A stretch of 64,000 nucleotides of DNA from Mobula hypostoma (lineage: Eukaryota), in assembly GCF_963921235.1 (NCBI RefSeq), contig NC_086097.1, forward strand, positions 77,440,001 through 77,504,000, given 5' to 3'. This document shows positions 10,553 to 61,800 of this stretch, piece after piece; within the stretch, counting starts at the first letter, position 1, and each line of letters starts with the position of its first letter. A model generated the notes under the pieces. That model had not been told where the DNA came from. It was given only the letters and a program-made list of their open reading frames with translations, and made no database searches. A program made the position numbers and the translations under genes.

Positions 10553-10720
10553 ATAACATAAAATGCTGGAGGAACTCAGCAGCTAAGGCAGAAGAATAAA
10601 GAGTTGATGTTTCAGGCCAAGACACTTCATCAGGACTGGAAAGTAAGTGGGGGAGAAGCCAGAAGGTGTGGGGAGAGGAAGGAGTATAAGCTGGAAGGTG
10701 ATAGATGAAAACAGGAGAAG
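10553..10720 (-). mobile_element. Penelope-like pseudo-LTR fragment with decayed hammerhead motif
   Basis: aaatgctggaggaactcagcag...gatgtttcaggccaagacacttcatcaggactgg; minus strand reads CTGATGA...GAAACATC. Confidence 0.75.
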
Positions 10721-10721
10721 A

Positions 10722-11077
10722 AGGAATTGATAGAGTTGACGTGGTTAGACTTATTCCATTGAGAGTGGGGAAGATTCAAACAAGAGGACATGAGTTGAGA
10801 GTTAGAGGACTAAAGTGTAGGGGTAATATGAGGGGGAACTTCTTTACTCAGAGAGTGGTGGCTGTGTGGAACGAACTTCCAGCAGAAGTGGTTGAGGCAG
10901 GTTCGATGTTGTCGTTTAAAGTTAAATTGGATAGATATATGGACAGGAAAGGAATGGAGGGTTATGGGCTGAGTGCAGGTCGGTGGGACTAGGATAGGGT
11001 AAGAGTTCGGCACGGACTAGAAGAGCCGAGATGGCCTGTTTCTGTACTGTAATTGTTATATGGTTATATGGTTATAT
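10722..11077 (+). mobile_element. CR1 LINE 3' end
   Basis: GIDRVD, TRGHEL, FFTQRVVAVWNELP, GMEGYG; (ttatatgg)n tail. Confidence 0.93.
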
Positions 11078-13884: not shown

Positions 13885-13885
13885 A

Positions 13886-13901
13886 TTTTATTCGCTGTAC
13901 A
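13886..13901 (+). promoter_or_regulatory. Primer-binding site complementary to the element's own LTR (putative self-priming)
   Basis: ttttattcgctgtaca is the exact reverse complement of tgtacagcgaataaaa at 13815-13830; no TGG start. Confidence 0.8.
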
Positions 13902-13910
13902 TTTTAAAGC

Positions 13911-14410
13911 ATGGAACATGCACTGAGACCAGACAAATTAGACCTCGATCCGCAAACACCTGAAGCTGGAAACGCTTTCGAACTCTGGCTGGCCTGCTTC
14001 GAAGTGCACCTAGAGGAGATTAAAGCGACCGACCCCGTAGCGAAGTGCAGAGTTCTACTCTCCAGGGTCAGTCCGCAGGTCTATTCGCTGATCAGAGACC
14101 AGCTGAGCTATGATGGCGCGATGCGCACACTCAAAGGACAATACCTGTGGCCAATAAACAGCGTCTATGCTCGGCACCGCTTAGCGAATGGGCAACAACG
14201 GCCCGGGGAATCAAGTGCTGAGTTCGTCCAGGCCCTACAGACGCTCGTGCGAGCCTGCAATTGCCAGGAGCTGACTGCGGTGCAGCATGCAGAGCTCTTA
14301 GTGAGAGACGCCTTCATCACGGGGACCAGGTCAGTGTACGTGCGCCAGCGGCTACTGGAAAAAGCCGATCTTACCCTAAGTTTGGCGATTGAGCTGGCCG
14401 ATACGCTGGA
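13911..14410 (+). pseudogene. gag: gag N-terminal part, truncated by the internal deletion
   Basis: MEHALRPDKLDLDP...ARHRLANGQQRPGESSAEFVQAL...LVRDAFITG...VRQRLLE (major-homology-region-like). Confidence 0.9.
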
Positions 14411-14438
14411 CCCAACAGGAGGCGCATACGGTCGCTCT

Positions 14439-16175
14439 ACTCCCTCTTCCCAACACCCTCAGAGCCCTCAAATGGTGCCTGGGCTTCTTTTCATATTACA
14501 CCCAATGGGTCTCTAACTATGCAGACAAGGCCCGCCCCCTGGTCAAGTCCGCCACATTCCCCCCTCTGCCGAGGCCCGCGCGGCCTTCAACCGCATAAAA
14601 GGGGACATTGCCAAAGCAGCAATGCATGCAGTGGATGAGGCCATTCCCTCCCAAGTAGAGAGTGACGCCTCCGACTTCGCACTGGCTGCTACCCTCAACC
14701 AGGCAGGAAGACCAGTGGCGTTCTTCTCCCGTACCCTTCAAGGCCCTGAAATTCAGCACTTCGCGGTAGAGAAAGAGGCCCAGGCCATAGTGGAAGCTAT
14801 TAGGCACTGGTGGCACTATCTTGCCGGCAGAAGGTTCACCCTGCTAGCTGACCAGCGCTCAGTCGCATTCATGTTTAATAATCAGCAGCAGAGCAAAATC
14901 AAAAATGATAAAATTCTGAGGTGGAGAATCGAACTCTCCACCTACAACTATGACACCATGTACAGGCCTGGGAAGCTCAAAGAGCCCTCCGATGCCCTAT
15001 CCCGGGGAACATGCGCCAGCGCGCAGATCGACCGGCTATACGCCCTACATGTAGACCTTTGCCACCCGGGGGTCACCCGGCTTTTCCACTTCGTGAAAGC
15101 CCGGAACCTGCCTTACTCCCTTGAGGAGATCAGGATGATGACCAGGGACTGCCAAGTCAGCGCAGAGTGCAAACCGCACTTCTACCGACCCGAAAAGGCA
15201 CCACTCATCAAGGCCACCCGCCCCTTTGAGCGACTGAGTGTTGACTTTAAGGGTCTCCTTCCCTCCACCGACCGCAATGTGTACTTTCTTAACGTTATCG
15301 ACGAGTACTTGCGGTTCCCCTTCGGCATCCACTGCCCCGACACCACTACCACGTCAGTTATAAAAGCCCTGCGCAAGCTCTTCACTCTGTTCGGATACCC
15401 ATGCTATATCCACAGTGACAGAGGGTCCTCGTTTATGAGTGACGAGCTGCGCCAATATCTACTGGCTAGGGGAATTGCAACTAGTAGGACCACGAGCTAT
15501 AATCCCTGGAGGAATGGACAGGTAGAGAAGGAGAATAGCACAGTGTGGAAAGCCACACTCTTAGCCCTCAGGTCAAAGGGACTGCCGGTCTCCCGCTGGC
15601 AGGAGGTCCTTCCCGAGGCACTCCACTCCATCTGCTCCCTGTTATGCATAGCCACCAATGCCACCCCTCATGACCGGCTCTTTTCTTTTCCCAGAAAATC
15701 GACCACTGGAACCACCCTACCAACTTGGCTGACGTCCCCAGGGCCAGTGCTGCTCCGGAAACATGTGAGGAGCAATAAATACTCCCTGATGGTCGAGAGG
15801 GTTCACTTACTTCATGCGAATCCCCGGTAAGCCTATGCGGTTTTACCTGATGGGCGGGAGGACACGGTCTCCATCCGCGACCTGGCGTCCGCAGGAGCAC
15901 TGGGCCCCTACCCTGAACGCTCCGTGGTGACTATTAACCCCGTACCCACCGATATATATACTCACCAGATACCGCGCACTCCAAACCCTACACAGACACC
16001 ACATGACACTCCCATACTGGGCGCGACGCACACGCACGAGGGATTACCACCACCTCACGTGCTGACACCTCAAGTTAGGCCGGAGCCAGCACAACCGCCA
16101 TCGCCGGTGCAATCACCACTGGTGCTACGTAGATCACAGCGACAGACTCAACCGCCTGATAGACTTAACCTGTAA
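14439..16175 (+). pseudogene. pol: pol remnant: RT thumb, RNase H, integrase
   Basis: CLGFFSYY; ESDASD...PVAFFSRTL...EKEAQAI; H-x4-H...CQVS (one Zn cysteine lost); VDFKG, SDRG, 35 aa, NGQVE (D,D35E); premature stop at 15828-30; ends PDRLNL*. Confidence 0.93.
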
Positions 16176-16246
16176 ATATACTTCTTGTAAATATTGTCAG
16201 TCACTTCACCCCACGGGACTCTTTTTTAAAAAAAAGGAGGGGTGAA

Positions 16247-16471
16247 TGTGGTAAACCATATATGTTGTAACTGGGTTAACTGTCTGGACACACCCCTCTG
16301 CTCACTGTCCCTGTGGCTCCTCCCACAGAGTCCTGTATAAAGGTGTTCGCCTTGTCCCTCCCCCTCAGTCCAGGGGCAGACACTTGCCGTGGAGGTTGTA
16401 TTGTACAGCGAATAAAAGCCTTTCAGTATTTTACCAAACCTCAGTCTTTTGGAGTTATTGAAGGTGCTTCA
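16247..16471 (+). repeat. 3' LTR
   Basis: Direct repeat of 13644-13884, preceded by polypurine tract aaaaaaaaggaggggtgaa. Confidence 0.96.
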
Positions 16472-17465
16472 GTATGTTTCATGATAAACTCTCAGTGGTG
16501 CTCCAGTATCACATTTCTGTTGAACTCATGTTCCCCTGACCTTGAACACTTCACAGCCAAATGTCATCCACTCTATTTACCTAGGGAGTTCTCCTCCATA
16601 ATCCTGACCACAGTTTACAAACCACCAGGGGCCGGCTAAAATCAAGTGTTTGAGGTTCAGCATGATGCTGTCTCCAAACAAGAAATAGTCCATCCTGACG
16701 CATTTCAAAGCATAGTCAGGGTCTTCAATGAGGCCTATTTGAAGAAAGCCCTGCCCAGTTGCCCTCAGCATATAACCTGTAGCATCAGAGGCCTGAACAC
16801 TCTAGAATACTGTTATACTAAGGGATGCCTACCATTTTACGCCCAGACCACATTTTGGTAAATTGGGTCACTTCGATGTCCTTCTCCTACCTGCATAGAG
16901 GCAGAGGCTAAAGAGCAAAGCTCCAGAGATTAGGGCAACAAAGAAGTGTTTGCGGGAGACAGAGGAGTGGCTACGAGATTGCTTTGATCGGAGGACCAGG
17001 TTCACGGTCTCTTCTGAGGACCTGAATGAATACACCAGGTTGTCATGCACTTTATTAAGACAGTTGTAGATGAATATGTCCCCACAAAATCATTTATAGT
17101 ATTCTCCAACCTGAAGCACTAGATGAACCATTAGATCCACAATCTGCTGAGGGCCAGATCACAGGCATTTAAGTCTGATGACAAAAAAAAGTTACAAGAT
17201 ATCCTGGAATGATCTCAGGAAAGCCATCTCATGGGCAAAGTGGCCATGAAGGATCAATGAAGGATGCTTGACAGTTGTTGGAGGGCTTGAATACTACCTC
17301 CTCTTATAAAGTTAAATCAAGCGACATAGGTGACAACAGAGTTTCATTTCCAGATGAGCTCAATGCCTTCTATGCTTGCTTTGATTGTCAAAACATGGAG
17401 GAGCCACCATAAACTCCCACAGCCCCTGACGACCCTGTCATTTCAGTCTCTGAGGCTAGCATGCA

Positions 17466-18426
17466 AACTCCTAAGGAAGTCTCTGACAACCTTCAAAGGT
17501 TCAAAGGTTCAAAGGTCCAATTTAATGTCAGAGAAATGTATACAATATACTTCCTGAAATGCTTTTTCTTTTCAAACATCCACGAAAACAGAGAAGTGCC
17601 CCAAAGAATGAACAACAGTTAAACGTGAGAACCCCAAAGTGCCCCCCAGCTCCCCTTCCCGGGCAAAAGTGGCAGCAAGCAACAATACCCCCCCAGCAAA
17701 AAAAAAGTGCACCCACCACTGAGCACAAGCATGAGCTAGGCAATAGCAAAGACACAGACCTTGCAGTTACCCCAAAGATTATCGCATTTCACCCAGCATT
17801 CGACAAACCACAGCTTCTCTCTCTCCCTAATAATCTCGTCCTGACAAAGGGTCTCGGCCTGAAACGTCGACTGCACCTCTTCCTACAGATGCTGCCTGGC
17901 CTGCTGCATTCACCAGCAACTTTGATGTGTGTTGCTTGAATTTCCAGCATCTGCAGAATTCCTATTGAGAGGGAGGTATCCCCCATTTTCATAGCAAGCC
18001 GGTTTACGATGTTAAAAAGTCAATTTTCTTGCTTTTTACAAGCTCTGTGCCTGAAGATCGCAAAGATCTCAGGTCTCTAAGCCCAGAGCGAAAGATTTTA
18101 CAGCCTCCCTGACTACACACAAGTCTCCTGCCGTTACACCGACCCTTGATCTGCCTGACTCCAGAGCATCGAGATCATAGGCTTTCGAATTTGGGCTGGA
18201 CTCTCAGGCCGAGCCCTTGGCATGCTGAACAACAATGGCTGGTCCCGAAACGCCGAGAACTGGGCCCATTCTGCAAAGAACCGAAGTCTGTGTGTAACTC
18301 CAGGTCAGGGTCTTCAAAATAACCTTGAAAGAGAAAAATAAAGATATTAAAGATAGAAATAGAGCAGTCTCCGAAGATGCAAGCAAAGGAGTCACCGTTT
18401 AGCGCCATCTTAACTGCGCCTCCAAC
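17466..18426 (-). mobile_element. Non-autonomous retroelement (YY1-like 5' motif, (cctttgaa)n tail) nested in Rex1
   Basis: Minus-strand start ggaggcgcagttAAGATGGCGC (18402-18423); tail (ttcaaagg)3 at ~17492-17516; same 3' end as 44775-45026. Confidence 0.75.
17836..17963 (+). mobile_element. Penelope-derived fragment with hammerhead motif (G8 to A mutant)
   Basis: gtc CTGACAA agg gtctcgg cct GAAA cg TC gac; near-identical to 42036-42180. Confidence 0.85.
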
Positions 18427-27858: not shown

Positions 27859-29401
27859 GAGGATGTGACTAAACACATTGTTGAAGGTAAATAAGTAGAT
27901 GTAGTGTATATGTAGTGTAGTGCAAGGCATTTGACAAGGTACCCCATGCAAGGCTTATTGAGAAAGTAAGGAGGCATGGGATCCAAGGGGGCATTGCTTT
28001 GTGGATCCATAACTGGCTTGCCCACAGAAGGCAAAGAGTGGTTGTAGACGGGTCATATTCATATTCATGGAGGTTGGACCAGTGTTGCGCCTCAGGGATC
28101 TGTTCTGGGACCCCTACTCTTCGTGATTTTTATAAATGACCTGGATGAGGAAGTGGAGAGGTGGGTTAGTAAATTTGCTGATGACACAAAGGTTGGAGCT
28201 ATTGTGGTTAGTGTGGAGGGCTGTCAGAGGTTTATTTTTTATATAGGCATCCGTTAGTCTCATGAGACCATGGATTTGCACCTTGGAAAGTATCCAGGGC
28301 GCAGGCCTGGGCAAGGTTGCATGGAGGACCAGCAGTTGCCCATGCTGCAAGTCTCCCCTCTCCACGACTCCAATGTTGTCCAAGGGAAGGGCATTAGGAC
28401 CCATACAGCTTGGCACCAGTGTCGTCGCAGAGCAATGTGTGGTTAAGTGCCTTGCTCAAGGACACACACGCTGCCTCAGCTAAGGCTCAAACTAGCGACC
28501 TTCAAATCACTAGATGAATGCCTTAACCACATGGCCACGCGCCAACAGATGTTACAGCGGGACATTGATAGGATGCAAAACTGGGCTGAGAGGTGGCAGA
28601 TGGAATTCAACCCAGATAAGTGTGAGGTGGTTCATTTTGGTAGGTCAAATATGATGTCAGAATATAGTATTAATGCTAAGACTCTTGGCAGTGTGGAGGA
28701 TCAGAGGGATCTTGGGGTTTGAGTCCAAAAGACACTCAAAGCTGCTACACAGGTTGACTCTGCGATTAAGAAAGCAGACGGTGCATTGGCCTTCATCAAT
28801 TGTGGGATTGAGTTTAAGAGCTGAGAAGTAATGTTGCAGCTATATAGGACCCTGGTCAGACCCCACTTGGAGTACTGTGCTCATTTCTGGTCACCACACT
28901 ACAGGAAGGATGTGGAAATCATAGAAGGGTGCAGAGGAGATTTACAAGGATGTTGCCTGGATTAGGAAGCATGTCTTATGAGAATAGGTTGAGTGAACTC
29001 GGCCTTTTTTTCCTTGGAGTGATGGAGGATGAGAGGTGACCTGATAGAGGTATATAAGATGACGAGAGGCATTGATCATGTGGATAGTCAGCGGCTTTTT
29101 CCCAGGGCTGAAATGGCTAGCACGAGAAGGCACAGTTTTAAAGTGCTTGGAAGTAGGTACAGAGGAAGTGTCAGGGTAAGGTTTTTACGCAGAGAGTGGT
29201 GAGTGCATTGAATGGGCTGCCGGCGACAGTGGTGGAGGCGGATATGGTAGAGTCTTTTAAGAGACTCCTGGACAGGTACATGGAGCTTAGGAAAATAGAG
29301 GGCTATGTGTAAGCCTAGGTAATTTCTAAGGTAGGTACATATTCGTCGCAGCTTTGTGGGCCGAAGGGTCTGTATTGTGCTGTAGTTTTTCTATGTTTCT
29401 A
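27859..29401 (+). mobile_element. CR1 RT and 3' end
   Basis: [46 protein letters not shown]; (tttctatg)n tail. Confidence 0.95.
28233..28545 (-). mobile_element. tRNA-derived SINE with RTE-like tail
   Basis: Minus-strand 5' tggcgcgTGGCCATGTGGttaagg (A box) and agtttgagcc (B-box-like); ccttgagcaaggcacttaacc; TSD cagaggtt/cagatgtt (28225-32, 28546-53). Confidence 0.85.
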
Positions 29402-34774: not shown

Positions 34775-34940
34775 ACAACACATGCAAAATGCCAGAGGAA
34801 CTCGGGAACCTTAATTTAGTCATCTCATCCTGATGAAGGTTCTTGGCCTGAATCATCGACTGCTTGCTCCTTTCCATAGATGCTTTCTAACCTGCTGAGT
34901 TCTGTATGGATTTCCGGCATCTGCAGAAACTCTTCTGTTT
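34775..34940. mobile_element. Penelope pseudo-LTR fragments in inverted arrangement; decayed hammerhead at 34830-34862
   Basis: acaacacatgcaaaatgccagaggaactc (minus) next to ctgatgaaggttcttggcctgaatcatcgactg (plus). Confidence 0.7.
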
Positions 34941-34944
34941 AAGG

Positions 34945-35640: not shown

Positions 35641-37129
35641 CCCACTAAACTAAAAGGGGAAGTAATACTGAAACTCCTGGGATGTGTAATCAAATGGAAG
35701 ATACTTGAAGAACGTCGTCGTATGATGGCATCTAAAAGAAAGGAAAAGAAAATAATGTGAACAGTCAAGCGTAACTAAAAACATATAGAAGATGACATAA
35801 GAGACTGCAGGTACTGGAATCTGGAGCAACGTACAATCTGCTGGAAGAACACAGCCAGTCAAACAGTAATTATTGATGTTTTGGGTCAAAATCTTGCATT
35901 AAGACTGGACTCCATATTAACAGAGGACTCTGAGCTGATTAAACAGAAACCAAAATGCATCCGAAGAATTCTGGTTGAAGCCTCATGAAGAAACATCTTT
36001 TCAAGTTGATGCATTCGTTAGATTAGAGAGTTGTGGTAAGCAACCTCTTTCATCATTACCTTGATGAGGGAGTGCTTGTAGCCCATTCCAACTGTAAAGC
36101 ACATTTCTCATATAAAGAAAATATGGTGAAGGAACGGACCAAGGAAATAAATCCAATTGTAAACAATGTTCCAGTCTTTTATATTTATATTAATCACTTC
36201 ACTGTGGAAAACTTGTTTCTCTTCAGAGTCTCTGAACAAAATACTTATTCATGGGAACAAACTTTGAAGTTACACTTGTTTCATTTGAAGTAGTTCACAA
36301 GGATTTCAGGTTATTGGGTTAGATTACACAGAACACAACTGCGAGTCTCTCACAAACTAGGCAACTACTTCCACAAATTGCACATCAAAGTTGAGAGTCG
36401 CTTTTTATGGTTTGACTGGAAGAATTTAAATTTACTGGGTTAGCCAAAGGATACCTTTATGAATAGACATACAAAACTATGACATGAACACTGAGATACT
36501 TGGCCAGTAAATCTAGTCTGTTCCTTTCAGATGGTGAAGATTAGATTTTATGACTTAGTGATACTGTCAAATAGTGACACTACCTAGACAAAATTTCAAC
36601 GGATATTTTATTTTGGAATTACATATTTTATGATCTATTATACTGCCCTCAGTTCAGAAGCCTATATAATATAGATCATGAGTTATGCCAAAGTCCAAGT
36701 AAACTTATTATCGAGAGAGAGAGATCATGGGCTCGTGCCCCGTCTCTAGGCTTCTTGGCCTTGAGGCCACACACTTCATTTGAAGCCTCCCAGAACACCC
36801 TCGGAAACAGTAAAGTGCCAGATCGCTCAATCAGCCCAGTAACACACCACCAAAATGTGGATCACTTGCACCAACTGTAGCAGAACCACATTTGAAAGAA
36901 GACATAAAAGAAGAGAAAGAAGTAGTTTCATAAAAAATCTGGAGGTTAACAATCCCCGTTTACTTTTCAAATTGGACATCTATCCTCTGCCTGGTGTGGC
37001 CTAGATAACTTTTCAACCTCTTGCTCTGTATCTGTAATGTTCCTTTCGAAGAGGTCTTCCTTCATTTTCCCTTTGTGATGAGAACTCTTGATGAGGATGA
37101 TTTGGACCCCAGTGCTGGAGTATCCATGG

Positions 37130-40814: not shown

Positions 40815-41125
40815 CTGCATCACTTTGAGGAACAGATTATAGGTCATTCAACACACAATGTTATACAAACCTACCTCATGATCAATCTAACCTCCTGTAC
40901 AGCCCACTACCCTACATTCATGTGCCAATCTAAGAGGGTCTGAAATGCCCCTTTTCTATCAGCCTCTACCACCACCCTTGGCACTACATTCCAGGAACCC
41001 ATTACTCTCTTTCTACAAAAATCTACCTCTGTCATCTCCCCTAAACTTTCCTCCACTCACCTTAAATAGATGTCCTCTGGTATTGGCTATTGACTTCCTG
41101 GGGGGGAGGGGGAGTGTTGGGTAGC
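40815..41125 (-). mobile_element. CR1 3' end
   Basis: ANTRGHLFKVSGGKFRGD...RFL on the minus strand. Confidence 0.8.
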
Positions 41126-42035
41126 TTTTATTTTTATAAGTAAAACATTTATTTTGCTCTTTATTCCATCTTGTGCAATATTGAATATTTCTGTTATTTT
41201 CCACAACAGATAATATGGTATAGAAGATGGAAGAGGGAGGGAAAATAAAAAGATCAAACTTGCTATGATGTTAATGCCTGGACTGTGTTCATTCGGTCAA
41301 CTCAATTGCTGAATTACAGTTTTCTTATGGAAATAGCATGTAATTATCTGCAATTTACTTTAATTGTATTTCAATTTTCAGAGTTTCACACTTCCTGTGC
41401 ACCCTTGAATGCCACCATGTTCCAACTAAATAACCGTTTGATGCTTATTTGAATTAATTAACTGTACAATGCACAACTAAGAATTGTGGAATTCTGCAAG
41501 AAGTTATGATAAACTACTCCTCCTTTAACGATTATGTGGAATCACGGTTATTTTTCTGTGATGGTTAGGGCTGGTTAGGTGAGTCACCAAATGGGAAAAC
41601 AGTTATGTATTGTGGAAAAGATAATAAATCTCGTTCTGGCTCCACTCCTTAGTTTAATTTATCCATGGTCTTGTCAAAGTAATTATATCAGAAAATGTAT
41701 TAATAATTCTATAATAAAAACAAAGAAGTTATTATCCTTATGATTAAACACCATTTCATTTCAAAGAATAGTATTGACTTTAACTCCAGCTAATGACCTG
41801 GTTGTGAGGAACATAGCCTAGAAAAAGCCTATTGAAATCAATCTTGGACAATCTAAGTATTGTTTGCCATGCAGGTTGTAATTTAATATCCATCTCCCAT
41901 GCTGCAATTCTAAGAATTAGTTTTCCGTCATCCATGAAGCCTCTTTGCAAGTCAGGAATAAATGTAATGCCCTCTGAATGACATAGAATGGGGTCACCCT
42001 TTAAAGCTTGTAAACCTAGAAAATTGCAGGTTGTA

Positions 42036-42180
42036 AACATCAGGAATTCTGCAGATGCTGGAAATTCAAGCAACACACATCAAAGTTGGTGGTGAACGCA
42101 GCAGGCCAGGCAGCATATCTAGGAAGAGGTACAGTCGACGTTTCAGGCCGAGACCCTTCGTCAGGACTAACTGAAGGAAG
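42036..42180 (-). mobile_element. 145-bp Penelope-derived insertion
   Basis: 15-bp TSD aaattgcaggttgta/aaattgtaggttgta (42021-35, 42181-95). Confidence 0.9.
42133..42168 (-). ncRNA. Minimal type I hammerhead ribozyme, intact core
   Basis: AGUC-CUGACGA-AGG gucucgg CCU-GAAA-CG-UC-GACU; all core nucleotides, stem I and stem II pair. Confidence 0.85.
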
Positions 42181-44651
42181 AAATTGTAGGTTGTATCAGT
42201 ACAATCTAAATAACAATCTTCCTTTGGAATGGAATATGACTTTTGCTTCTGGTGTGCATAGGATAACACCAGTTAAGGTATTATGTCTCTTTTGGAGAAT
42301 TGTAGGCCTAAAGCAGAATTATCATTGTTCAATCCAGGGTTAACCAGGTCTTCCCAGTGTAATGTTGGAGAGGAGATCTATGTTTGTCTTCCATTCCTTG
42401 TCTCCCTACCTCACATGACACTCCCCCTCCACCCTATGATTGGCCAAAACTTCCAGGCCCTGAGTTCCAGGTGAGCAGCTGCATTTGCCACTTCCTCCCC
42501 CCCCAGCCTACTCACCTACCTGCTAACTAACTCCCATCTCCTGTGAGCCTGACACTGCTCACAAGCACCACAACTCTCAGCCACATACCTGATCACCAAG
42601 TTGACCTCTGGCACTGGTTAAATTGGTGGCTGCCAACCTTCTCTCCAAAGACACCTTGGACTTGGGAAGCATAGGCTTATTCATGAAATTCCCAGCACCC
42701 ATCTAGCAGTACCCCGGGCTTAGATCTGAAACACTTATGTAATAATTGTGGGCCTGAAAGAAACAGTGCTGTCCCACCACTGCTGTGACCATCTTAGTCA
42801 TGAATTCCTAGGCCATTATGTTTGTGAATGTGAGTAGGATCAGCTTATTAATTATTAACAAATTATTGTTCACCAACCCATGAACTTGTGGTGATCGAAT
42901 GCAATGACTACAATGGTCTCAAACCAGGAAGCGTCCCATGATAACTACCCAACACATCATGAGTGTACATATTGGACACTCTTGACTCTGAATGAGTTGA
43001 ACACAAGAACCTCAGGTGCTGAACTGTCACAGATTTGTTCCTGATCTAAGGCACTGTGCTCTCAAGCTATAGAACTAATTCCATAAAATACTTCTAAACT
43101 TGGCTTAGCCAACATCGCCAAAGCAGTTTGTCTGGCCACAATTCCTTACATCAGCCATTACAGTCTGGTTTGGTATAACGTCCTTTCACAATATACTAAA
43201 ACTACGGCAAACTTTCAGTTCAGCAGAAAAGGGTCATTAGCTGCCATCTGCTATCGTTGCAGGACGTGTAAGTGTCTAAGACAAAGAAGCAGGCAGGAAA
43301 AATCATTGTGGGTACTACCTAATCCGTAAAGTGCCTTTTCCAAAACCTCATTTCTGGAAAGCGCTATAGAGCTATTAAAACAAAATCTTCACATCTTCTT
43401 AAAAGGTTCTTCCCCATGGTAGTTAATCTGATCAACCATCCAAGTTAGCCCTCCCTGCCTTCTGTCACTGCAGTGCATGTATACACTTAAAACACTTTTC
43501 ATAATGCAGTTTACATTGTAATTCCATGTATGCAGGCATTTATGCATTCATGCACATTTTATTCCATATCTGTCCTTTAAGTTCTAACTTTGTTTTCATA
43601 TAATTCTTTATTCTTTATAATTGTTGAATATTGTTGCTTTTTGTACATGTCAAGCCCTGATCAACATACCACAACAAATTCTTAAAAAATGTATATGTAC
43701 TGTATATGACAAATAAAATTGATCCTCCTTGATTACACTGCTGGCCTTGAAAGCTACTGCTTTCACATATTGTGCCTTAAGCTAGCTGCCTCATTCGCTT
43801 GAGATGTTCTGACAGTGGAATAGAAGGTTCCATGCGGTGACACATCTCTCTTTAACATCAATCATTTCTACACCCTTCACCTGCAAATCTGATGCCAAAA
43901 ACCCACAGTTTCTCCTTCCACAGCCATCTTTCAACTTTACTACCATTTCTTTCCTTTCCAACCATTGTGAAAGAGAAAGACAACAAGCTCACAAATGAAG
44001 TATAGTTTTCCATATTTGTCCATAAGCTGGGAGTAGAGGATTTAAATGAAGGCAAGAGGAAAGACAACAGCGAACGTTGATAAGTGCTTTGACATAAAGA
44101 TGAGCATTTAGATTAAAATCTTTAAATTATCCATTAAAACCCTTGATATCCTTTCCCACGAAATGCAGTTTTATAGCGTTGATACTGTTTCAAAGAGGGT
44201 GAGATTTTCTGATCAAGCTGCCTTCGACTGTTCCAGCTGTTACATTTAGAGCCTCGCTCATCCATGCCAGTGTTGTTCTCTTCAGAAATTGAATGAGATG
44301 GACTGGTTTCTCATTCAGCACCACAATGTGCAGATTATCTGTCAGAACTGCGGCTGGTAGTTAGCCTGTTCCAGGCCTTCTGGATTTTTGTTTATTTTTG
44401 CTCATTTGGCCGAGTTTCACTATTGCCATTTTATCTGAAAGCTCTTGCTCTGCTTGAAAACATTTTGCGAAGATGTCACTGATGTAAATCTATGAGTGAC
44501 ACTGGTGTATCCCATTGAAATACTGAGAGCTCCCCTAAAACTGAGAAACTGAGGGTGGATTTAGACTGACACCAAAGCAAGCTACACTGATGCCAATGAA
44601 TAGTAAGTACTCCACAAACACAATGAATAACTTCACCCCGGCTGCTGGCAA

Positions 44652-46330
44652 ATGCACATCTCTGAGGATCTAACTTGGTCCCAACATACTGATCCAGTTA
44701 TAAAGAAGGAAAGACAGCGGCCAAACTCCATCAGGAGTGTGAGGAGACTTGGTATGTCAACAAAAACACTGAAACAAATACGCTTGAGTGCTTGGTGCTG
44801 GTGCTTGTTTTTTTTGCCGATGGGGGAGTATTGTTGCTTGCTGCCGCTTATGCACAGGAAGGAGGGAAGCTGGGGGGACTTTGGGGTTCTTACCTTTATC
44901 TGTTGTTCATTCTTTGGGGAACTTCTCTGTTTTCATGGATGTTTGTGAAGAAAAAGTATTTCAGGATGTATATTGTATACATTTCTCTGACATTAAGTTG
45001 GACCTTTGAACCTTTGAACCTTTGAAAAACTTCTATAGTTGTAGCGTGGAGAGCATTCTGACAGGCTGTATCACCGTCTGGTATGGTGGGGCTACTGCAC
45101 AGGACCGAAAGAAGCTACAGAGGATTGTAAGTCTTGTCAGCTCCATCTTGGGTTCTAGTCTACAAAGTACCCAGGATATCTTCAAGGAGCAGTGTCTCAG
45201 AAAGGCAGTGTCCATTATTAAGGACCTCCAGCACCCAGGGCATGCCCTTTTCTCACTGATACCATCAGGTAGGAGATACAGAAGCCTGAAGGCACACACT
45301 CAGTGATTCAGGAACAGCTTCTTCCCCTCTGCCATCCGATTCCTAAATGGTCATTGAACCCTTGAACACTACCTCAGTACCACAGCACCTGGCCACGTGG
45401 TGTGCCGACAACAACCTAGCCCTTAACACCCAGAAGACCAAGGAGATCATTGTGGACTTCAGGCATGCTAGGAGCCACACTCACATCCCTATCTACATCA
45501 ACAGAGCTGTAGTGGAATGTCTATCAAGCTTCAAATTCCTTGGTGTCCTCATTTCCAAGGATCTCACCTGGTCCCTGAACTCCTCCATTCTGATCAAACA
45601 ACAGCACCTTTATTTTCTGCGGAGCACCAAGAAAACTCACCTCTGTCCAGGATACTGATGGACTTTTACCGCGGTACCATTGAGAGCATACTCACCAACT
45701 GCATCTCAGTGTGGTATGGTAATTGTCCCGTATCAGACCGCAAAGCACTCTGGTGAAAACTGCCCAGCGGATTATCCGCACCCAATTGCCCACCATTGAG
45801 AACATCTACTATAAACGCTGCCTGAGCAGGGTGAAAAGCATTATCAAGGATGCATCTCACCCTAACCATGGACTTTTTACTCTCTTCCCATCTGGTAGGT
45901 GCTACAGGAGCCTCCATTCCTGCACCAGCAGGCACAGGAAGAGCTTCTTCCCTGAGGCTGTGACCCTGCTGAACCTCGCATCACAGCGCTAAGCAGTATT
46001 GCATCCATATTGTACTGTCTCAGTACTTTTACATTTGTGTGCTGTAGCTCTTACTTTTTATTCACAGTTATTTTGTAAATAACACTATTCTTTGCATTTC
46101 TGGTTAGATGCTAACTGCATTTCATTGGCTTTGTATCTGTACTCGGCACAATGACAATAAAGTTGAATCTAATCTAATCTAATCTTTTTAATATACAGTA
46201 TTTCTGTTTTTTGCATGATTTTTAAAATCTATTCAATATACGTATTCTGTAATTGATTGATTTATCATTATTATTTTCTTCTAGATTATGTATTGCATTG
46301 AACTGCTGCTGCTGAGTTAACAAATTTCAC
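44652..46330 (+). mobile_element. Rex1/Babar 3' end with two nested insertions (44775-45026 non-autonomous 3' end; ~45378-46185 second Rex1 3' end)
   Basis: HISEDLTWS, FYSCSVESILTGCITVWYG, SIIKDLQHPGH; nested copy WCADNNLALNTQKTKEIIVDFR with (aatct)n tail; (cctttgaa)n tail at ~45002-45026. Confidence 0.9.
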
Positions 46331-47659: not shown

Positions 47660-50499
47660 TGGGAATACTGTTAGCGATGTTAGCCAGCAGCCTGAGGAAG
47701 GACCCTGTTGGCCAGCATTGAAAAAGTACCCTTCGCTGCTCGCAACAGTTTGGCAATCAGCAAAGGAGTTTTATTCGTGGCTGGTTTGACTGGCTGGAAT
47801 ATTCGATTACGAAAGATACTACGTTTTGCTTCGCATACAGGCATTTCCTGTGTGGAGGACATGGTTTCCATTCTGAGTCTACCTTCACTATCACCGGTTA
47901 CCGCAACTGGCGGAAAGCTACAACGGCTTTCAAAACCCACCGTGTAAGTGCAGCTCAGAAGTTTGCTATGGAGGCACGGGCTGAATTCAGATTGAGAAAA
48001 CAAGACGGTTCAAGATTGGGAAATATGCCTGACAAAGGACATGCAAAGATTGTCCAAGAAAATCATGAGTTTATGAGAGCGGTGGTTGACTCTCTACACT
48101 ATACTGCGTGCCAAGGCATTGCCCAGCGAGGACACCGGGAGGATGATGGATCTGGCAATAGGGGAAACTTTGTTGAGTTGCTCAGTGTAATTGGACAGTT
48201 TGATAAGACTGTAGCTAAAAAAATAGACGACAATCCTGGAAATGCAAAAAACACCCATCACGATATCCAGAATGAAATTGTGGGTATTATGGCAGATATG
48301 GTCAGACGTGAAATAAGTGCAGAAATCAAGGAGGCTGGGCATTTTGCCATCATGGTGGATGAAAGTGAAGACTCGAGTAAAAAGGAGCAAATATCAGTGG
48401 TGGTGCGGAATTTGAATAACGAAACAGTGCTTGAAGAATTCTTGCACTTTACTCCAGCAGAAGGGTTGGATGCAGAGTCGCTTCTTAAAAGCATTGAACA
48501 GCCATTCGCCCAGTATGTTATTGATAAGAATGCGTGTATAGGTCAGTGTTATGACGGGGTGGCAGTGATGTCCCGGTGCAATAATGGGGTACAAGAGAGG
48601 TTCAGGAAAGAGGTCCCGCAGGCATTATATATACACTGCCATGCTCACAGACTTAACCTTGTTTTAGTGGATGTTGTGAGCAATGTACAACAAGCAGGCA
48701 GGTGAGTTTTTTGAAACTGTGCAGCTGCCTTACAACAACTTTTCAAACTCTGTTGACCATGATCTTTTCATGAAGAAACTGAGAGAACTGGAATCAACTG
48801 CACAGCCTGTGGAGTTGAAGAAATTGTCAGATACACGCTGGGCATGGCTTTGTGGGCTATAAGGAAATCACTCCCTACCATTCTAGCTACACTACAGGAT
48901 ATTATGGGTCAACCAAATGCACAGAGGAAAACGGAGGCCAGAGCTGTAAATGGACTGATTGACGAGCAGTTTGCTTTACTTCTCACTCTGTTTGAGGATT
49001 TATTCCGAGTCACCAAGTTCATGTCAGACCAGCTACAATCTCCCAGTTTGGAGCTTTCATCCCCTGTGGACTTGGCTCAGTCTGTTATCGACGCACTCTC
49101 AGCAAAATGGGGAGAGGAATCATGGAGTGAAATTCAGGCAAGAGCTAGGGACCTGTGTGTCAAGGCCGGTATACAGAGCAGACCACATGAAAGGAGATAG
49201 GCCCAGCCACCCTGCTGCCTACATGATTTTGTTGTTGAGGCCCAAACTGAACACACCTGCGACATTCTCTGATGACCTTCGCAAGCACTGTTTCTATCCG
49301 GTTATAGACAGACTTCTGACTGAAATAAAAAGATGGTTCTCAATTGAGACTGAGGGTGTTCTGACTGGAGTCTCATTGAGTCCCAAACACAAGTTCTTCC
49401 TAGTCAAGAATTGTCTTTGGCCAATGGCCCAATACTATGGAGTGACTGAAGTGAACCTGACTGTAGGGCTATATCAGGTTCGGCATCTGCTGGAAACGAA
49501 ACAAAAGCAAGGGCAGACAGGGAATGACACAGTGGAATTTCTAGCTCTAATGAGACCCTACGCGATGCATTTATAAATTTATACAAACTAATCTGCATAT
49601 CACTGACTCTACCTGTGACATCTGCCTCAGGCAAACGGAGTTTCTCTTGCCTCCGACGCCTCAAAAACTACCTAAGGAATAGCAGCGGCGATGCTCAGAG
49701 CAGCAACTTGGCCCTGTTGGCCATAAACAGCCGGAGGACCAAAGCACTTGACATCCAGAAAATCAATGATGCTTTTGCCACCAATCACGACAACAGACGG
49801 ACTGTGCTTGTCTGAAAACATCAATGGTGAGTGCAGTTGATTTTTTAAAAATTTGGTCCAAGACTAATGCTGATTATTATTATTAATTTGTGGTGGATAC
49901 CCCATAGTCTTTAATGTTTCCTACAAATCTTAAAATATTATATTTACTGCTATTAAGCCTACTGGTTTTGCTTAGACTTCCAAGCAGTGATTCTATTGAT
50001 TTTCGTTTTAATTTCAGTAGCCGAATTAATTGAGGTATTGAATGGTCAGAATACGATTTGTCCAACTCCTGGTAAAACCCTGCATCTGTTGTTTGCCTTA
50101 TTTGACTTTAATAACGATGTATCTTTTGGCGTTGTCTGTCTATGTAATGTGAATAGCAGTGGACATTGTGGGTCAGTGTTGACGTTTGACGTTGTGTGCG
50201 ATTCACGTTGTGCGCTGTGGGTCAGATGCTCTGTTGGTTTGTTTGTTTGTGCTCTGTGTAGCCCGGGTTGTTTCCAGTGCTGTTGACACTGTCACAGTTC
50301 ACTTCTATATTATATCTATCAATTGCTGTTGCTTGTGAATCAACATTTATACTAGGCACAAATGCTTGAAACTGACTTTTGAACGCCAGGTGTCTGGCCT
50401 TGCGAATACATATTACCATACAGTACATCCCTCAGCTCCATCACTGAATAATTCAGCCCCACTGTAGCACCAGCAAGAAAAAATATGGCGCCGCCACTG
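47660..50499 (+). mobile_element. hAT (Tip100-like) DNA transposon, 5'-truncated
   Basis: Right terminus atggcgccgccactg ends at 50499; no matching left TIR nearby; transposase remnant. Confidence 0.85.
47670..49815 (+). pseudogene. hAT transposase (ZMYM1/DUF4371-like) pseudogene
   Basis: WLEYSITKDTTFCF (TTF-type finger region), QGIAQRGH, NRGNFVELL, FAIMVDESEDSSKKEQIS, GQCYDG, YIHCHAHRLNLVL, LSDTRW, LTLPVTSASGKRSFSCLRRLKNYLR; frameshifts. Confidence 0.93.
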
Positions 50500-53425: not shown

Positions 53426-53914
53426 CAAACTAAATATTTCAATAAGGAAAATTAACATGATTTAAAAAACCACAGCAAAAAAAAATTGAAAACATTAATT
53501 TAATGCAAAGTAAAAGACCATCTCCTTTAGCTCCTAATCTTTTCCTATATCATGTCTAAGTATAGAATGCAATGGCAATAATCCAGCTGGAGTTCAGCAG
53601 CACAAGCAAATTGACATCTTTGACATCCCAAATCTGTCAGCAATTCTTGCTTATCCATGTCTTAAAGAGCATCTTTGAAACTTTGAGACCCACAACCATT
53701 GGAACAATGAGCAGTTCCAGACAGAACTGCCAGCAAATTCAACACAATCCAGACCATTAAGTTTTGTAAGGAAACATTTGCCTTACACCATTCCAGACAC
53801 AACATGAGTTAATTGAGATACCATGGTGTTTTGGAACATGGATGCAATTTACATATTTGCACCAGATCGCTCTTCTCAGCAGCAGCAGAGACTTGAAGTG
53901 ATATAAGCTACAAG

Positions 53915-54695
53915 CAGGAGAAATTCTGCAGATGCTAGAAATCCAAAGCAATGCACACAAAATGCTAGAGGAACTCAGCAGGGCAGCAGCTGTGGGAATG
54001 ATTAAACAGTGGATGTTTCCGGCCAAGGCCCTGCATCAGGACTGGAAAGGAAGGGGTAAGGAGTCAGAATAAGAGGTGTGGGGGAGGGGAAGGGAGGAAG
54101 ATGTACAAGGTAAAAGGGGAGGAAGAAGTATATGGTAGCTCAACATAGATTTGCAGAACATTTCATCAAGACCAGATATAGATTGGGAGACCTCTTTGTT
54201 GAGCAACCTAGCTCTGTCTGCCACAAAAAGCGAGTTTTCCGGTAGCCATCCATTTCAATTTTACTTCTCATTCCCATTCCCAGTCCATAGCCTCCTCTAC
54301 TGCCGTGATGAGGCCACATTCAGGTTGGAGGAACAACACCTGATATTCTGTCTTGGTTGCCTCCAACAGATGGCATGAATATTGATTTCTCAAACTTCCA
54401 GTAGTTGCCACACCTCCACTCCTTCACTATTCCCCATTCTTGTTTCCCTTTCACCTCCTTCTCCTCTTACCTGCCCATCACCTCCCTTTCTTCCATAATC
54501 TTCTGTCCTCTCCTATCAGGTTTCCCCCATCACCAGCCCTTTATCACTTTCACCAACTAACTACCCAGCTCTTTGCTTCGTCCCCTCCCCCTCTTCTGGT
54601 TTCACCTATCACCTGCCATTTTGTACTTCTTCCTGCCCTCCCCCACCTTCTTATTCTGATCCCTTCACCCTTCCTTTCCAGTCCTGATGAAGGGT
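53915..54695 (+). mobile_element. Penelope-like element: GIY-YIG C-terminus and pseudo-LTR, with an inverted pseudo-LTR at the 5' side
   Basis: RLGDLFVEQ, PVAIHFN, LEEQHLIFCLG, GMNIDF; ends cagtcctgatgaaggg; inverted copy at 53915-~54130. Confidence 0.85.
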
Positions 54696-55429
54696 GTGAT
54701 GCAAGATAGGTATTATATGCACACCAGAAATCCACAGCAAATCCAAAAGGTATAATAGTTAATTTACATCGTAATCTAGTTATAAGGTGGTTCTTGAGGA
54801 TGATTGATAAGATTACACTCTTCTATTCAATTCCATTGTAAATCTAACTGTGGGACACTAACTCATGAATAGTTTTGAATAACCTCACATCTGAGAGGGT
54901 AGAGATCACAGATCAGTTTAGTACTTCCATCAATAAAAAGGCACAGGCACCACTGAAGCACTTACACTCAACTGCACTGAGCTTGACTCAAATTCTGCCC
55001 AATAATCCTGTCTGAGGCTTGAATGTATTACTTTCTTGCTAAGTCCAGACTGACACTCAAACATGTTCTCAGATGCCATTTTTACACAGTTTAAGGGGTG
55101 ATAAACAAAAAAATCAAAACCACAAATAATTCCAAATAAACAAAATCAGAAGGCTGATGCTAATGAACCAAACTAATTCAAAAGCATCACAACTATTATA
55201 AAGGATTAACTTTTCATTTCGATGTTGGGCTTGAATTAAACAGCAGGAGTTTGTATACATTTTTTGAAGTAAAAATAGTTGAAAACAGACAACCGTGTTC
55301 TCAATGATGTCAATTATAATTTTAATTTATGATTAAGTGGAAATTTGGCAAGAATACTTTTCATCAATTACTCAGAACTTTTGGGTGACTTAACGCTTTA
55401 AAGTTTGAGTTTCTTCCTAATCGACCAAA

Positions 55430-59389: not shown

Positions 59390-60312
59390 CTATGGTGCTC
59401 CTCTAAGTGGTCCCAGAATTTGCATCAAGCCGCAGCGGGGACACTGGATGTAATAAATAACTCCAACAGACTCACAGATGAAACACTGCCTCACCCGAAA
59501 AGACTGTTCAGGGTGGTGAGGGAGGATGTGTCAGGGCAGGTGTAACACTTGGCACAGCTTCAGCGATAAGCACCAAATTCTCTAACTCCCCTCTCTTTCC
59601 TCCTCCACACCCTCATCTTTATTTTTCCTCATTCGTATGGCCCTCTATCCCCTTTTCTTCCCCCCCCACCTTTATGACCTGCCCATTAGCTTCTTCTAGT
59701 TCCTCACATCCTTCTTCTTCACACAGAGAGTGGTGAATCTGTGGAACTCTCTGCCACAGGAAACAGTTGAGGCCAGTTCATTGGCTATATTTAAGAGGGA
59801 GTTAGATATGGCCCTTGTGGCTAAAGGGATCAGGGGGTATGGAGGGAAGGCGGGTACAGGGTTCTGAGTTGGATGATCAGCCATGATCATACTGAATGGC
59901 AGTGCAGGCTCGAAGGGCCGAATGGCCTACTCCTGCACCTATTTTCTATGTTTCTATGTTTCCCTTTATTCCAATGTCTTTTGATTTCTCCCATCAGATT
60001 CCTTCCACATCAACTCTTTACCTTTTCCATCTATTACCTCCTAGTTTCTCATATTATCGCATTTCATTCCCATCTCCCTCAACCACATACCTCCCCCCCC
60101 TCAATGCATCTCGCCTATCAATTGCCAGCTTGTAAAGCTCTCCCTTCCCCAACCTTTTTATTCTGGCTTCTGACTCCTTTGTTTACAATCCTGATGAAGG
60201 GTCTTGGCTCAAAATGTCGACTGTTTATATCCCTCCATAGCTGTAGCCTGATTTGAGTTCCCTCAGCACTTTGTGTGAGTTGCTCAAGATTTCCATCATC
60301 TGCAGAATCTCT
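59390..60312. mobile_element. Penelope-like fragments (inverted internal piece plus pseudo-LTR) split by CR1
   Basis: Decayed hammerhead ctgatgaagggtcttggctcaaaatgtcgactg at 60191-60223; typical pyrimidine-rich pseudo-LTR. Confidence 0.7.
59711..59961 (+). mobile_element. CR1 3' end
   Basis: FFTQRVVNLWNSLPQ; 3' UTR similar to 860-944; (tttctatg)n tail. Confidence 0.92.
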
Positions 60313-61014
60313 TATATCCCAGTGTCAGGTGATATATCAAGTTAATTATAATCTCTTAATCACAAGTATAGGTATTTCATCACAAAATAGGAAATTCGTG
60401 TCATTGACTAACTAAAAATCCCTGCTGGTTGCTTACCTAATGACTGGTCCATTATAAATGTAGGAGAGCATTTCTACAAAGTTAGATCCCACAGGACACC
60501 AAAGCAAAGCCGGTTTAATCACTCCAAGTGCCTTTCTCAATCTTTCTTGCCAAATCACTGCACCTCATCTCCCACAACCTGCCAGCCAGAGCAGAGAGTC
60601 TGTCGAATAAGTGCAAAACTTTATCTTCTCATCACTTCCACTCCAGAAGTTAAATCACCCCAGCCCCTGTCATCAAATAACAATGCACAGATAACATTTA
60701 CAAATGTACATCACTGAAGACTGAGCTCCAGGTCTCAGCTGATTCTTTCATTGTAGCATATGAAAGAATGGGCCTCCCAGTGAACAAGCTGCTGTTGCAC
60801 AGCTCCAGGAAGCTGCATTCAGTCCTTCTCCTTGGAGATGTCTGTATGCACTTCCTATTTTTTCTCCACCACAATGTGGTTTCTTCCAGTTGTTTCATTT
60901 TCTTCTCATTTCCTGTATTCTTCGGTTACTTTAAATTGCCTTGGGTGCCGGGGAATTGGGGTTGCACATGTGACAGAGAAGAGGTTACAGAGAAATTAGT
61001 AGGAATAAGCCCAC

Positions 61015-61800
61015 ACTACATATTAAATGCTCCCAACGGTTAGCCTCTCAAATAGCCTCTGACAACCAAGTCCAGCTCATGGCCTTCATGTGTGGTTTAG
61101 CTACTAAGCCTGGCAGAACCATTTTTACTGTCAGGAGAAGGGGAAAAGGTGAGTTACTTGCACCTTAAAACCAGTAACTTTGGGCATATGGGACTTTTCA
61201 GCCATGGTTGGTGTGGTAAACCATATATATATATGTTGTAACTGAGTTACCTGTCTGGACACGCCCCTCTGCTGACTGCCCCTGTGGCTCCTCCCACAGA
61301 GCCCTGAATAAAGGTGATTTCGCCTTGCTCCTCCTCCTCAGTCCAGGGGCAGACACTCAGCATGGTGGAAGTCACATTTTACTGCGAATACAAGCCTTTC
61401 AGTATTTACCCTACTTCAGTCTTTTGGAGTAATTGAAGATGCATCAGTTGGCAGCTCATTTGGAAAAGGAAAACTCTGATCTCAAGCCTCTGCTGCCATA
61501 AGACTATACCCACTTATGGGGAAGTCTTCGGGAGTAAACCCTGAGGAAAAAAATCTGTAACGGGAGTCCCTAAGGGTGTCCAACATAGAGGTCAATGCCG
61601 AGTGGCAACATTGTTGCCAAATTGTATCGTTTTCTGCAGTTCCTTTGGATTCATCAGCTGCATTGAGGGAAGGAGGCTGCTGCATAGGAACCAGCCTGCT
61701 CTCCATCTCGTACTGCCCTGGCTTGTGTGCTAGCTCGCATATCATGTAGACAGCTAGGATGCAATATCCATGGTCGAGACCAACCAACGGAGGACCTCAA
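61015..61800 (+). mobile_element. RTE-derived non-autonomous element (host of the solo LTR)
   Basis: RTE-like 5' UTR (aaggaaaactctgatctcaa); 3' tail atccatggtc...aacgga..cct shared with the SINE at 28233-28545. Confidence 0.55.
61212..61446 (+). mobile_element. Solo LTR of the 13644-16471 Gypsy family
   Basis: tgtggtaaacc...gaagatgcatca; 5-bp TSD GTTGG (61207-11, 61447-51). Confidence 0.95.

What the first reader, a model, noticed from the sequence alone, without database searches (positions are those of the whole stretch)
42133..42168. Intact minimal hammerhead ribozyme in a 145-bp TSD-flanked insertion
Seen (minus strand): stem I AGUC/GACU, core CUGACGA, stem II AGG/CCU, GAAA, palindromic ACGU in place of stem III, cleavage triplet GUC (cut between 42137 and 42136). 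The insertion 42036-42180 has a 15-bp TSD with one mismatch and no ORF. Known: Penelope-like elements carry minimal type I hammerheads thought to cleave as dimers via the palindrome. Inference: a potentially active ribozyme in a retrozyme-like or solo pseudo-LTR unit that could cut minus-strand transcripts.
Basis: partly seen in the sequence, partly recalled or inferred. Interest (0 to 1): 0.7.

Follow-up and report, generated by a model that had tools for sequence, protein, structure and literature searches.

The report
Penelope retrotransposon stub with minimal hammerhead
This 145-base insertion is real and carries an intact copy of a known tiny self-cutting RNA motif, but it is most likely just the cut-short end of a very abundant Penelope-type jumping gene of a shark- or ray-type genome, predicted not to cut on its own, so it is ordinary.

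Summary
Observation confirmed. The minus-strand hammerhead core at 42168-42133 and the 15-bp target-site duplication (1 mismatch) are present and beyond chance. The insertion is one of 8 family copies in the window. 83,407 contigs of one DNA run lie on the stretch. An older copy (54168-54696) runs upstream into the end of a GIY-YIG endonuclease of Penelope-like RT-EN proteins. Other copies continue upstream of 42181, so 145 bp is not a fixed unit. There is no tandem array, so the retrozyme definition is not met. CpG decay inside the listed part of the ribozyme equals that outside, so intactness needs no selection. The monomer is predicted to fold inactive. Minimal hammerheads in Penelope terminal repeats are published (PMC4209133). 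Open point: many other copies begin at 42166-42168, the 5' foot of stem I, not at the cut site. This scan has reported the same family and this clustering before, in this genome and others (76 findings by words).

The parts
42133..42168 (-). Minimal type I hammerhead motif: stem I 42168-42165/42136-42133, core CUGACGA 42164-42158, bulged A 42157, stem II 42156-42153/42148-42145, GAAA 42144-42141, palindrome ACGU 42141-42138, C17 42137
42036..42180 (-). 5'-truncated end of a Penelope-like element: 12 bases upstream of the ribozyme, the ribozyme, and 97 bases to the family's common 3' end
42021..42035 (.). Target-site duplication, left copy
42181..42195 (.). Target-site duplication, right copy (1 mismatch)
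42167..42181 (-). Pyrimidine tract ending in AG directly at stem I; looks like a 3' splice site (inferred, splicing not shown)
   Evidence: sequence; the same signature in copies at 54043, 54680, 10637
17838..17963 (+). Sister copy, 95% identical over 126 bp, begins inside the 5' strand of stem I, core broken (G8 to A); no TSD found
54168..54696 (+). Older, longer copy: decayed end of the GIY-YIG endonuclease (54168-54404), 276-base untranslated stretch, then the first half of the ribozyme
53908..54140 (-). Inverted 5'-truncated copy abutting the longer copy head to head; core broken
59950..60318 (+). Older copy (with a further piece at about 59560-59714) next to an inverted endonuclease fragment at 59574-59417; core broken
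34826..34944 (+). Older short copy beginning at the foot of stem I, internal deletion, palindrome broken
10556..10779 (-). Older copy, palindrome and stem I broken
35795..35909 (-). Heavily decayed short copy (nhmmer E 2.6e-7)

Best explanation
The 145-bp insertion is likely a dead-on-arrival, 5'-truncated copy of the terminal repeat of a very high-copy Penelope-like retrotransposon, and its intact minimal hammerhead is a passenger that is predicted not to cut as a lone copy. Mechanism: the element's RT/GIY-YIG protein makes a staggered cut 15 bases apart (TSD shown; enzyme inferred). It starts reverse transcription inside the element RNA about 100 bases downstream of the ribozyme (common 3' end shown; internal priming inferred from PMC11167929). 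It copied through the ribozyme and stopped 12 bases upstream of it. Because both sides of the cut site are present, the template was uncut or re-joined RNA (inferred). In the parent element the ribozyme would cut only as a pair joined through the ACGU palindrome, or with help from the element's protein (from the literature, untested here). The motif is intact here because the copy is young, not because it is selected (inferred).
For: 8 family copies in the window; 5' ends vary widely and most share the 3' end. 83,407, 49,858, 16,562 and 20,996 contigs of four DNA runs lie on the stretch; summed depth 1.5e7 on the element against 21 on the flanks in run X1. 3' loose ends cluster at 42035-42042; loose ends at 42181 continue as shared family sequence. 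Copy 54168-54696 joins the ribozyme to an endonuclease end 79% identical over 28 aa to ray protein P0042. P0042 and kin carry an RT YIDD motif, a CxxxxCxxC linker and GIY-YIG; full-length relatives have RVT_1 then GIY-YIG. Two inverted head-to-head arrangements (53908-54696; 59417-60318) match the Penelope layout described in PMC8557442. Changes at CpG sites in run X1: 8.5-12.2% at six ribozyme positions against 8.2-10.5% at two positions outside. This copy has 2 private changes in about 115 listed positions, so an intact 36-mer is expected in roughly 32-54% of copies of this age. 7 of 8 window copies have a broken or cut-off motif. In the monomer fold GACG of the core pairs with CGUC at p 0.96-0.98.
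Against: The link from this young subfamily to an ORF is indirect: it runs through older copies 73-75% identical to it, and I could not trace the young subfamily's own upstream sequence beyond 30 bases. GIY-YIG Pfam scores are below the curated cut-off (18.7-21.3 against 22.6 bits; 4 of 5 proteins, 3 of 4). The variant table has no rows for 42152-42181 and that is empty, so decay of CUGANGA itself was not measured. 5' ends are clustered, not random. No empty site was seen, so the TSD is not confirmed against a pre-insertion allele. Energy models omit core tertiary contacts and are biased against any hammerhead.
Confidence: 0.8

Rival explanations
1. The short copies are a non-autonomous, SINE-like class copied from a short RNA that begins at or near the 5' foot of stem I (a transcription start or a splice junction there) and are mobilised in trans by the Penelope protein; this copy would be a slightly longer member.
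For: Loose ends with long, unlike flanks pile up at 42166-42168 in all four DNA runs (in X5: 127, 159 and 310 contigs, median loose length 249, 255, 169, agreement 0.32-0.37). 3 of 8 window copies begin there or within a few bases. A pyrimidine tract plus AG ends there in both subfamilies. In D. virilis Penelope the intron ends at the 5' end of helix I (PMC4209133).
Against: This copy begins 12-13 bases further upstream, so its template reached beyond that point. The 42168 group is mixed with an older subfamily whose upstream sequence simply differs. 4 of 8 window copies extend 100 bases or more. No RNA end or splice joint was observable (contigs only).
Confidence: 0.13
2. It is the monomer offspring of a tandem non-LTR retrozyme that replicates through a self-cleaved circular RNA of about 130-145 nt.
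For: Monomeric 'solo retrozymes' related to Penelope terminal repeats are described in vertebrates, one chondrichthyan included (10.64898/2026.07.22.740005). The size is near the low end of the 150-450 bp range (PMC7229834).
Against: No tandem array here. None of the 15 joints shown table 5 goes back 130-145 bases (25 more were hidden). The ribozyme is the minimal Penelope type, not the canonical type with loop 1-loop 2 contacts. The family continues upstream into a UTR and an endonuclease end.
Confidence: 0.04
3. This copy is a host-used ribozyme that cuts or regulates minus-strand transcripts and has been kept intact by selection.
For: It is the only fully intact motif among 8 window copies, and the insertion is shared with a second organism (X5 contigs enter it from both flanks).
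Against: Intactness is expected by youth alone (32-54%). The second organism is only 1.5% diverged in the flanks (10 of 668 bases). No intact partner lies in the window. No host coding domain was found in 29 nearby frames, apart from one Pfam hit at 45347-45655 (short exons would be missed).
Confidence: 0.03

Closest known systems
Minimal hammerheads (min-HHR) in pseudo-LTRs of metazoan Penelope-like elements (Cervera and De la Pena 2014, PMC4209133; parts 1-2 of 4 read, supplements not seen)
   Same: Type I layout, short helix I (4 bp), extra base between positions 9 and 10.1, G at 10.1 pairing with C/U at 11.1, palindromic 15.2-16.2 without helix III, thousands of dispersed single motifs from truncated elements; reported in fish Xena, Poseidon and Neptune elements.
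   Different: Helix II is 4 bp here, not the 7-8 bp of the Schistosoma families; cartilaginous fish are not named in the parts read; copy number appears far higher than the 2,000-9,000 quoted.
Endonuclease-bearing Penelope-like elements of Neptune/Nematis type (Craig et al. 2021, PMC8557442; passages read)
   Same: RT then GIY-YIG, CX2-5CxxC linker, 5' truncation, adjacent inverted truncated copy, hammerhead near the 3' end.
   Different: Clade not placed by a tree here; a clear 15-bp TSD in non-repetitive DNA, whereas the paper notes a microsatellite bias for Neptune.
PAc, Poseidon element of Anolis (Frangieh et al. 2024, PMC11167929; parts 1-2 of 4 read)
   Same: Reverse transcription starts inside the RNA 111-118 bases past the start of stem II; here the common 3' end lies about 121 bases past stem II. 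Uncut RNA was the main template, and the ribozyme cut only with protein.
   Different: In PAc the ORF begins at stem II; no such ORF start was shown here; different clade.
Non-LTR retrozymes of animals (PMC7229834, passages; bioRxiv 10.64898/2026.07.22.740005, parts 1-3 of 5)
   Same: Non-coding, type I hammerhead, long TSD, related to Penelope terminal repeats; solo monomers exist.
   Different: Retrozymes are defined by tandem units and circular RNA; neither was found here. 8 of 9 predicted Xenopus dimers did not cleave in the preprint.

Membership tests
Minimal type I hammerhead (PLE type) | Core CUGANGA, GAAA and a UH cleavage triplet in type I order | tested here: met
Minimal type I hammerhead (PLE type) | Helix I and helix II can form; extra base after A9; G10.1 pairs with 11.1 | tested here: met
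   pair probabilities; U/C variation at 42145 (G-U in this copy)
Minimal type I hammerhead (PLE type) | Palindrome in place of helix III allowing a double hammerhead | tested here: met
   ACGU at 42141-42138; the nested dimer is possible at -9.5 kcal/mol but far above an inactive duplex at -28.3
Minimal type I hammerhead (PLE type) | Self-cleavage at C17 as dimer or with protein | not testable with these tools
   needs an in vitro assay
Rfam hammerhead families | Score at gathering threshold | tested here: not met
   0 matches at gathering in the window and 0 up to E 10 in 41900-42300
EN+ Penelope-like element | Family sequence lies downstream of an RT plus GIY-YIG ORF on the same strand | tested here: met
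   older copy 54168-54696; relatives with RT and GIY-YIG; indirect for the young subfamily, GIY-YIG scores below the Pfam cut-off
EN+ Penelope-like element | 5' truncation, common 3' end, inverted adjacent copies | tested here: met
EN+ Penelope-like element | Full-length or partial-tandem parent copy | not testable with these tools
   no genome held; collection scans empty
Neptune clade | CX2-5CxxC linker between RT and EN | tested here: met
   present in 5 of 5 proteins checked; also shared by Nematis per PMC8557442
Neptune clade | RT phylogeny places it in Neptune | not tested
   no reference sequences at hand
Non-LTR retrozyme | Tandem units each with a hammerhead | tested here: not met
   0 arrays in 41000-43500; no 130-145-base go-back joint among those shown; arrays elsewhere in the genome not excluded
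Non-LTR retrozyme | Fixed unit ends | tested here: not met
   the family continues beyond 42181; window copies range from about 115 to over 520 bases
Non-LTR retrozyme | Expressed as circular RNA | not testable with these tools
   only contigs of runs guessed to be RNA were available

The most novel reading that the evidence does not exclude
A spliceosomal 3' splice site ends inside the 5' strand of stem I (AG|UC) in both subfamilies, as in Drosophila Penelope. Splicing would rewrite stem I and so switch the ribozyme, and the short RNA that begins there would be the template of a mass-produced 125-130-base non-autonomous class. This copy, which keeps 12-14 bases of the putative intron, would be a record of the unspliced, uncut precursor. 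That would tie intron retention, ribozyme state and the 5'-end peak of vertebrate Penelope copies to one site.
Probability: 0.15. Interest if true: 0.5.

Novelty: new member of a known kind. Interest (0 to 1): 0.13.

Why it matters
As a single copy it matters little: it is one of tens to hundreds of thousands of remnants of a known kind of element, and the ribozyme type was described in 2014. The family is a useful natural record of how Penelope elements copy themselves. Copies keep both sides of the cut site, which fits the in vitro result that uncut RNA is the template (PMC11167929). Their 5' ends pile up at the foot of stem I, where a splice-acceptor-like signal ends. What the hammerhead does for Penelope elements is still called unclear (PMC8557442), and this intact young copy is a convenient substrate for testing it.

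Tried and rejected
No whole genome is held, so copy number and 5'-end spectra come only from laid contigs. Rfam: nothing. Pattern scans of viral contigs, metagenome contigs and genome contigs: 0 matches each. The look-up of sequencing runs: no RNA holder listed. Runs guessed to be RNA hold family contigs (X24 1,534; X21 1,255, probably DNA) but none on this locus's right flank; this says nothing on expression. Empty site: organism C's contig stops matching at 42020, the TSD edge, with 58 letters left that were not shown and did not lie on the right flank; inconclusive. A 44-aa query found no homologue; Pfam found nothing on the three endonuclease fragments themselves. In one search, 1 of 3 hits (P0003) is an unrelated repeat protein. 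P0001 is a chimeric gene model, so most of the 79 hits are ATP synthase subunit c and were ignored; 6 ray proteins matched the endonuclease part. My first double-hammerhead notation was invalid and was redone. No TSD was found for the copies at 17838, 34828 and 35909. Rejected: a chance motif; copies starting at the cut site as the main class (no peak at 42136-42137 among the six best-supported loose ends per run; 756 more were hidden); RT stalling at the stem I hairpin as cause of the 5' peak (a stall would end copies at the 3' foot, 42133; inference). Lunse et al. (PMC5785218) is not held; I saw it only as a reference in PMC6765202.

Full report
Observation. The minus strand at 42168-42133 reads AGUC CUGACGA A GGGU CUCG GCCU GAA ACGU C GACU. 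All conserved hammerhead positions are present in type I order, with C17 at 42137. A pattern search found 1 match in the window and none in 100 dinucleotide shuffles. A descriptor that also demands stems I and II found only this site and none in 100 resampled windows. The flanking repeat 42021-42035 / 42181-42195 is 15 bp with 1 mismatch; 5 of 4000 random intervals gave such a repeat. Rfam does not recognise the motif at gathering level in the window or up to E 10 locally, and folding energy is unremarkable (z -0.37). Stem II is better drawn as GGGU/GCCU behind a bulged A: -6.0 against -4.6 kcal/mol, pair probability about 0.25 against 0.006 in the 145-nt context. Position 42145 is C instead of U in 31%, 36%, 83% and 72% of laid depth in four runs, which preserves a pair only with G. 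This is the register that PMC4209133 lists as typical (extra base after A9, G10.1-C11.1).

The family in the window. BLAST and a profile built from the copies found 8 members (a ninth profile hit at E 0.28 was ignored). The copy at 17838-17963 is 95% identical; three older ones scored by BLAST over 73-130 bases are 73-75% identical. Most end near the same 3' position, about 100 bases past the ribozyme; the copies at 54680 and 10637 are cut short on that side. 5' ends differ: three begin at or within a few bases of the foot of stem I, this one 12 bases upstream, and four extend 100 bases or more. Only this copy has an unbroken motif.

The parent. The copy at 54168-54696 continues upstream through a 276-base untranslated stretch into a frameshifted coding remnant. 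A 35-aa piece of it found 3 proteins at E below 0.001 among 1.84 billion, 2 of them matching at about 70% identity. One of these led to 6 proteins from Hypanus and Mobula gene models among 79 hits (the rest are mostly ATP synthase subunit c, because the query was chimeric). These align back to 54168-54404 in four collinear pieces (P0042: 79% over 28 aa, E 5e-16 against the window) and to a second, inverted fragment at 59574-59417. They carry an RT YIDD motif, a CxxxxCxxC linker and YIGET. Pfam gives GIY-YIG for 4 of 5, below the curated cut-off. Full-length relatives of 749-828 aa at 45-47% identity give RVT_1 in 4 of 4 (2 above cut-off) and GIY-YIG in 3 of 4. RT-linker-GIY-YIG order, 5' truncation and an adjacent inverted truncated copy are the features given for Neptune/Nematis-type Penelope-like elements in PMC8557442 (passages). 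The link to the young copy is a chain: it matches the older copies at 53919-54043 and 60189-60308, and these match the untranslated stretch of the long copy at 82% and 71%. The host is likely a ray, from the protein matches (inference).

The family in sequencing runs. No genome is held, and pattern scans of three collections were empty. Of 24 runs listed I laid 6. In one search, 83,407 contigs of run X1 (possibly the source sample), 49,858 of X5, 16,562 of X9 and 20,996 of X10 lay on 41700-42450, nearly all on the element. Summed depth was 1.5e7 against 21 on the flanks in X1. The tool warns this is no copy number; allowing each base to be counted 1 to 31 times gives a rough range of 22,000-690,000. 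Loose ends at the 3' side cluster at 42035 and 42042. At 42181 they are short and alike (agreement 0.59-0.68), that is, the family goes on upstream and this copy is truncated. At 42166-42168 they are long and unlike (X5: 127, 159, 310 contigs; agreement 0.32-0.37), that is, many insertions begin there, although the 42168 group also holds an older subfamily. No peak at the cut site was among the six rows shown per run; 756 rows were hidden. The insertion is shared with organism B, whose flanks differ at 10 of 668 bases.

Is the intact motif special? In X1, changes at CpG sites occur in 8.5-12.2% of depth at six ribozyme positions (G1.1, C17, G16.2, C15.2 and two in loop 2) and in 8.2-10.5% at two positions outside; X5 gives 7.9-12.3% and 11.0-13.4%. 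So the copies decay without regard to the ribozyme, as far as listed; the table has no rows for 42152-42181, so CUGANGA was not measured. This copy differs from the majority at 2 of about 115 listed positions, and an intact 36-mer is then expected in 32-54% of such copies. The predicted monomer fold pairs GACG of the core with CGUC (p 0.96-0.98). The double hammerhead is possible but, at -9.5 kcal/mol, lies above two monomers (-20) and an inactive duplex (-28.3); these energies omit core contacts. In print, a single minimal motif did not cleave and dimers cleaved weakly (PMC4209133, parts 1-2 of 4); the Anolis ribozyme cut only with the element's protein, and uncut RNA was the main template (PMC11167929, parts 1-2 of 4); 8 of 9 predicted Xenopus retrozyme dimers did not cleave (10.64898/2026.07.22.740005, parts 1-3 of 5).

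Mechanism. Shown: TSD, common 3' end, variable and clustered 5' ends, endonuclease remnant upstream in an older copy, both sides of the cut site present. Inferred: a staggered cut by the GIY-YIG domain, internal priming about 120 bases past the start of stem II as in Anolis (111-118), copying of uncut RNA, and a stop 12 bases past the ribozyme. The retrozyme reading fails its defining features: no tandem array, no 130-145-base go-back joint among the 15 shown (25 hidden), no fixed ends. Circular RNA could not be tested.

What stays open. The 5' peak at the foot of stem I fits neither cleavage (which would give 42136) nor a stall at the hairpin (42133). An RNA end there fits best; I take that reading from earlier notes of this scan and could not test it. 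A pyrimidine tract ending in AG abuts stem I in both subfamilies. In D. virilis Penelope the intron ends at the 5' end of helix I (PMC4209133), 46 bases after the start site plus 75 bases of intron (PMC2377424, passages). Splicing here is inferred only. A word search of earlier findings for this reading gave 0 with all words.

Novelty. The ribozyme type and its place in Penelope terminal repeats are published (also reviewed in PMC6765202 and PMC7229834, passages). Four paper searches listed no paper devoted to this shark/ray family; subscription papers, Repbase and Dfam were not searchable, and supplements of PMC4209133 and the 2026 preprint, which I did not see, may list it. The scan itself has noted the family many times (76 findings in at least 22 genomes), none at this place. 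Verdict: real, correctly spotted, ordinary; new member of a known kind; interest 0.13.

Noticed in passing
window 42130-42181, joints: In all four DNA runs some contigs go back 35-40 bases from 42167-42181 to 42130-42142: rare genomic head-to-tail duplications of the ribozyme alone (depth 13-181 against 8-21 for a single-copy flank where measured). They are natural candidates for a double-hammerhead test.
   Followed up: partly
window 53908-54696: Head-to-head Penelope insertion: an inverted short arm joined near 54140 to a long arm with the endonuclease end; the long arm is cut off inside the ribozyme.
   Followed up: yes
window 59417-60318: Second inverted Penelope arrangement: endonuclease fragment on the minus strand, terminal repeat on the plus strand, interrupted at 59714-59949 by another repeat similar to 705-941.
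   Followed up: partly
window 42182-42188 equivalent, loose-end consensus: Upstream of this copy's 5' end the family reads like a branch-point motif (TACTAAC in run X1, TACTAGC in X5, X21, X24) before the pyrimidine tract; the variation weakens the branch-point reading.
   Followed up: partly
window 17778-17791 and 60054-60067: A 14-base exact match upstream of two different copies; the young copy at 17838 may sit in an older Penelope remnant, or this is chance.
   Followed up: no
window 13633-16473: Decayed Gypsy-type LTR retrotransposon: repeats at 13633-13884 and 16236-16471 (85% identical), RNase H and integrase domains; a related solo repeat at 61211-61449.
   Followed up: partly
window 47722-49576: Remnant with a DUF4371 domain, likely a hAT-type DNA transposon (label recalled).
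   Followed up: partly
window 85-861 and 27903-28185: LINE-like coding remnants (a 258-aa open frame; RT-like pieces), with many related repeats across the window.
   Followed up: no
proteins P0001, P0002, P0021, P0076: Ray gene models in public databases have this element's endonuclease end fused to host proteins, likely annotation artefacts or exonisation.
   Followed up: no
window 45347-45655: Pfam ALKBH8_N match (21.5 bits, cut-off 21), likely from a repeat rather than a host gene.
   Followed up: no
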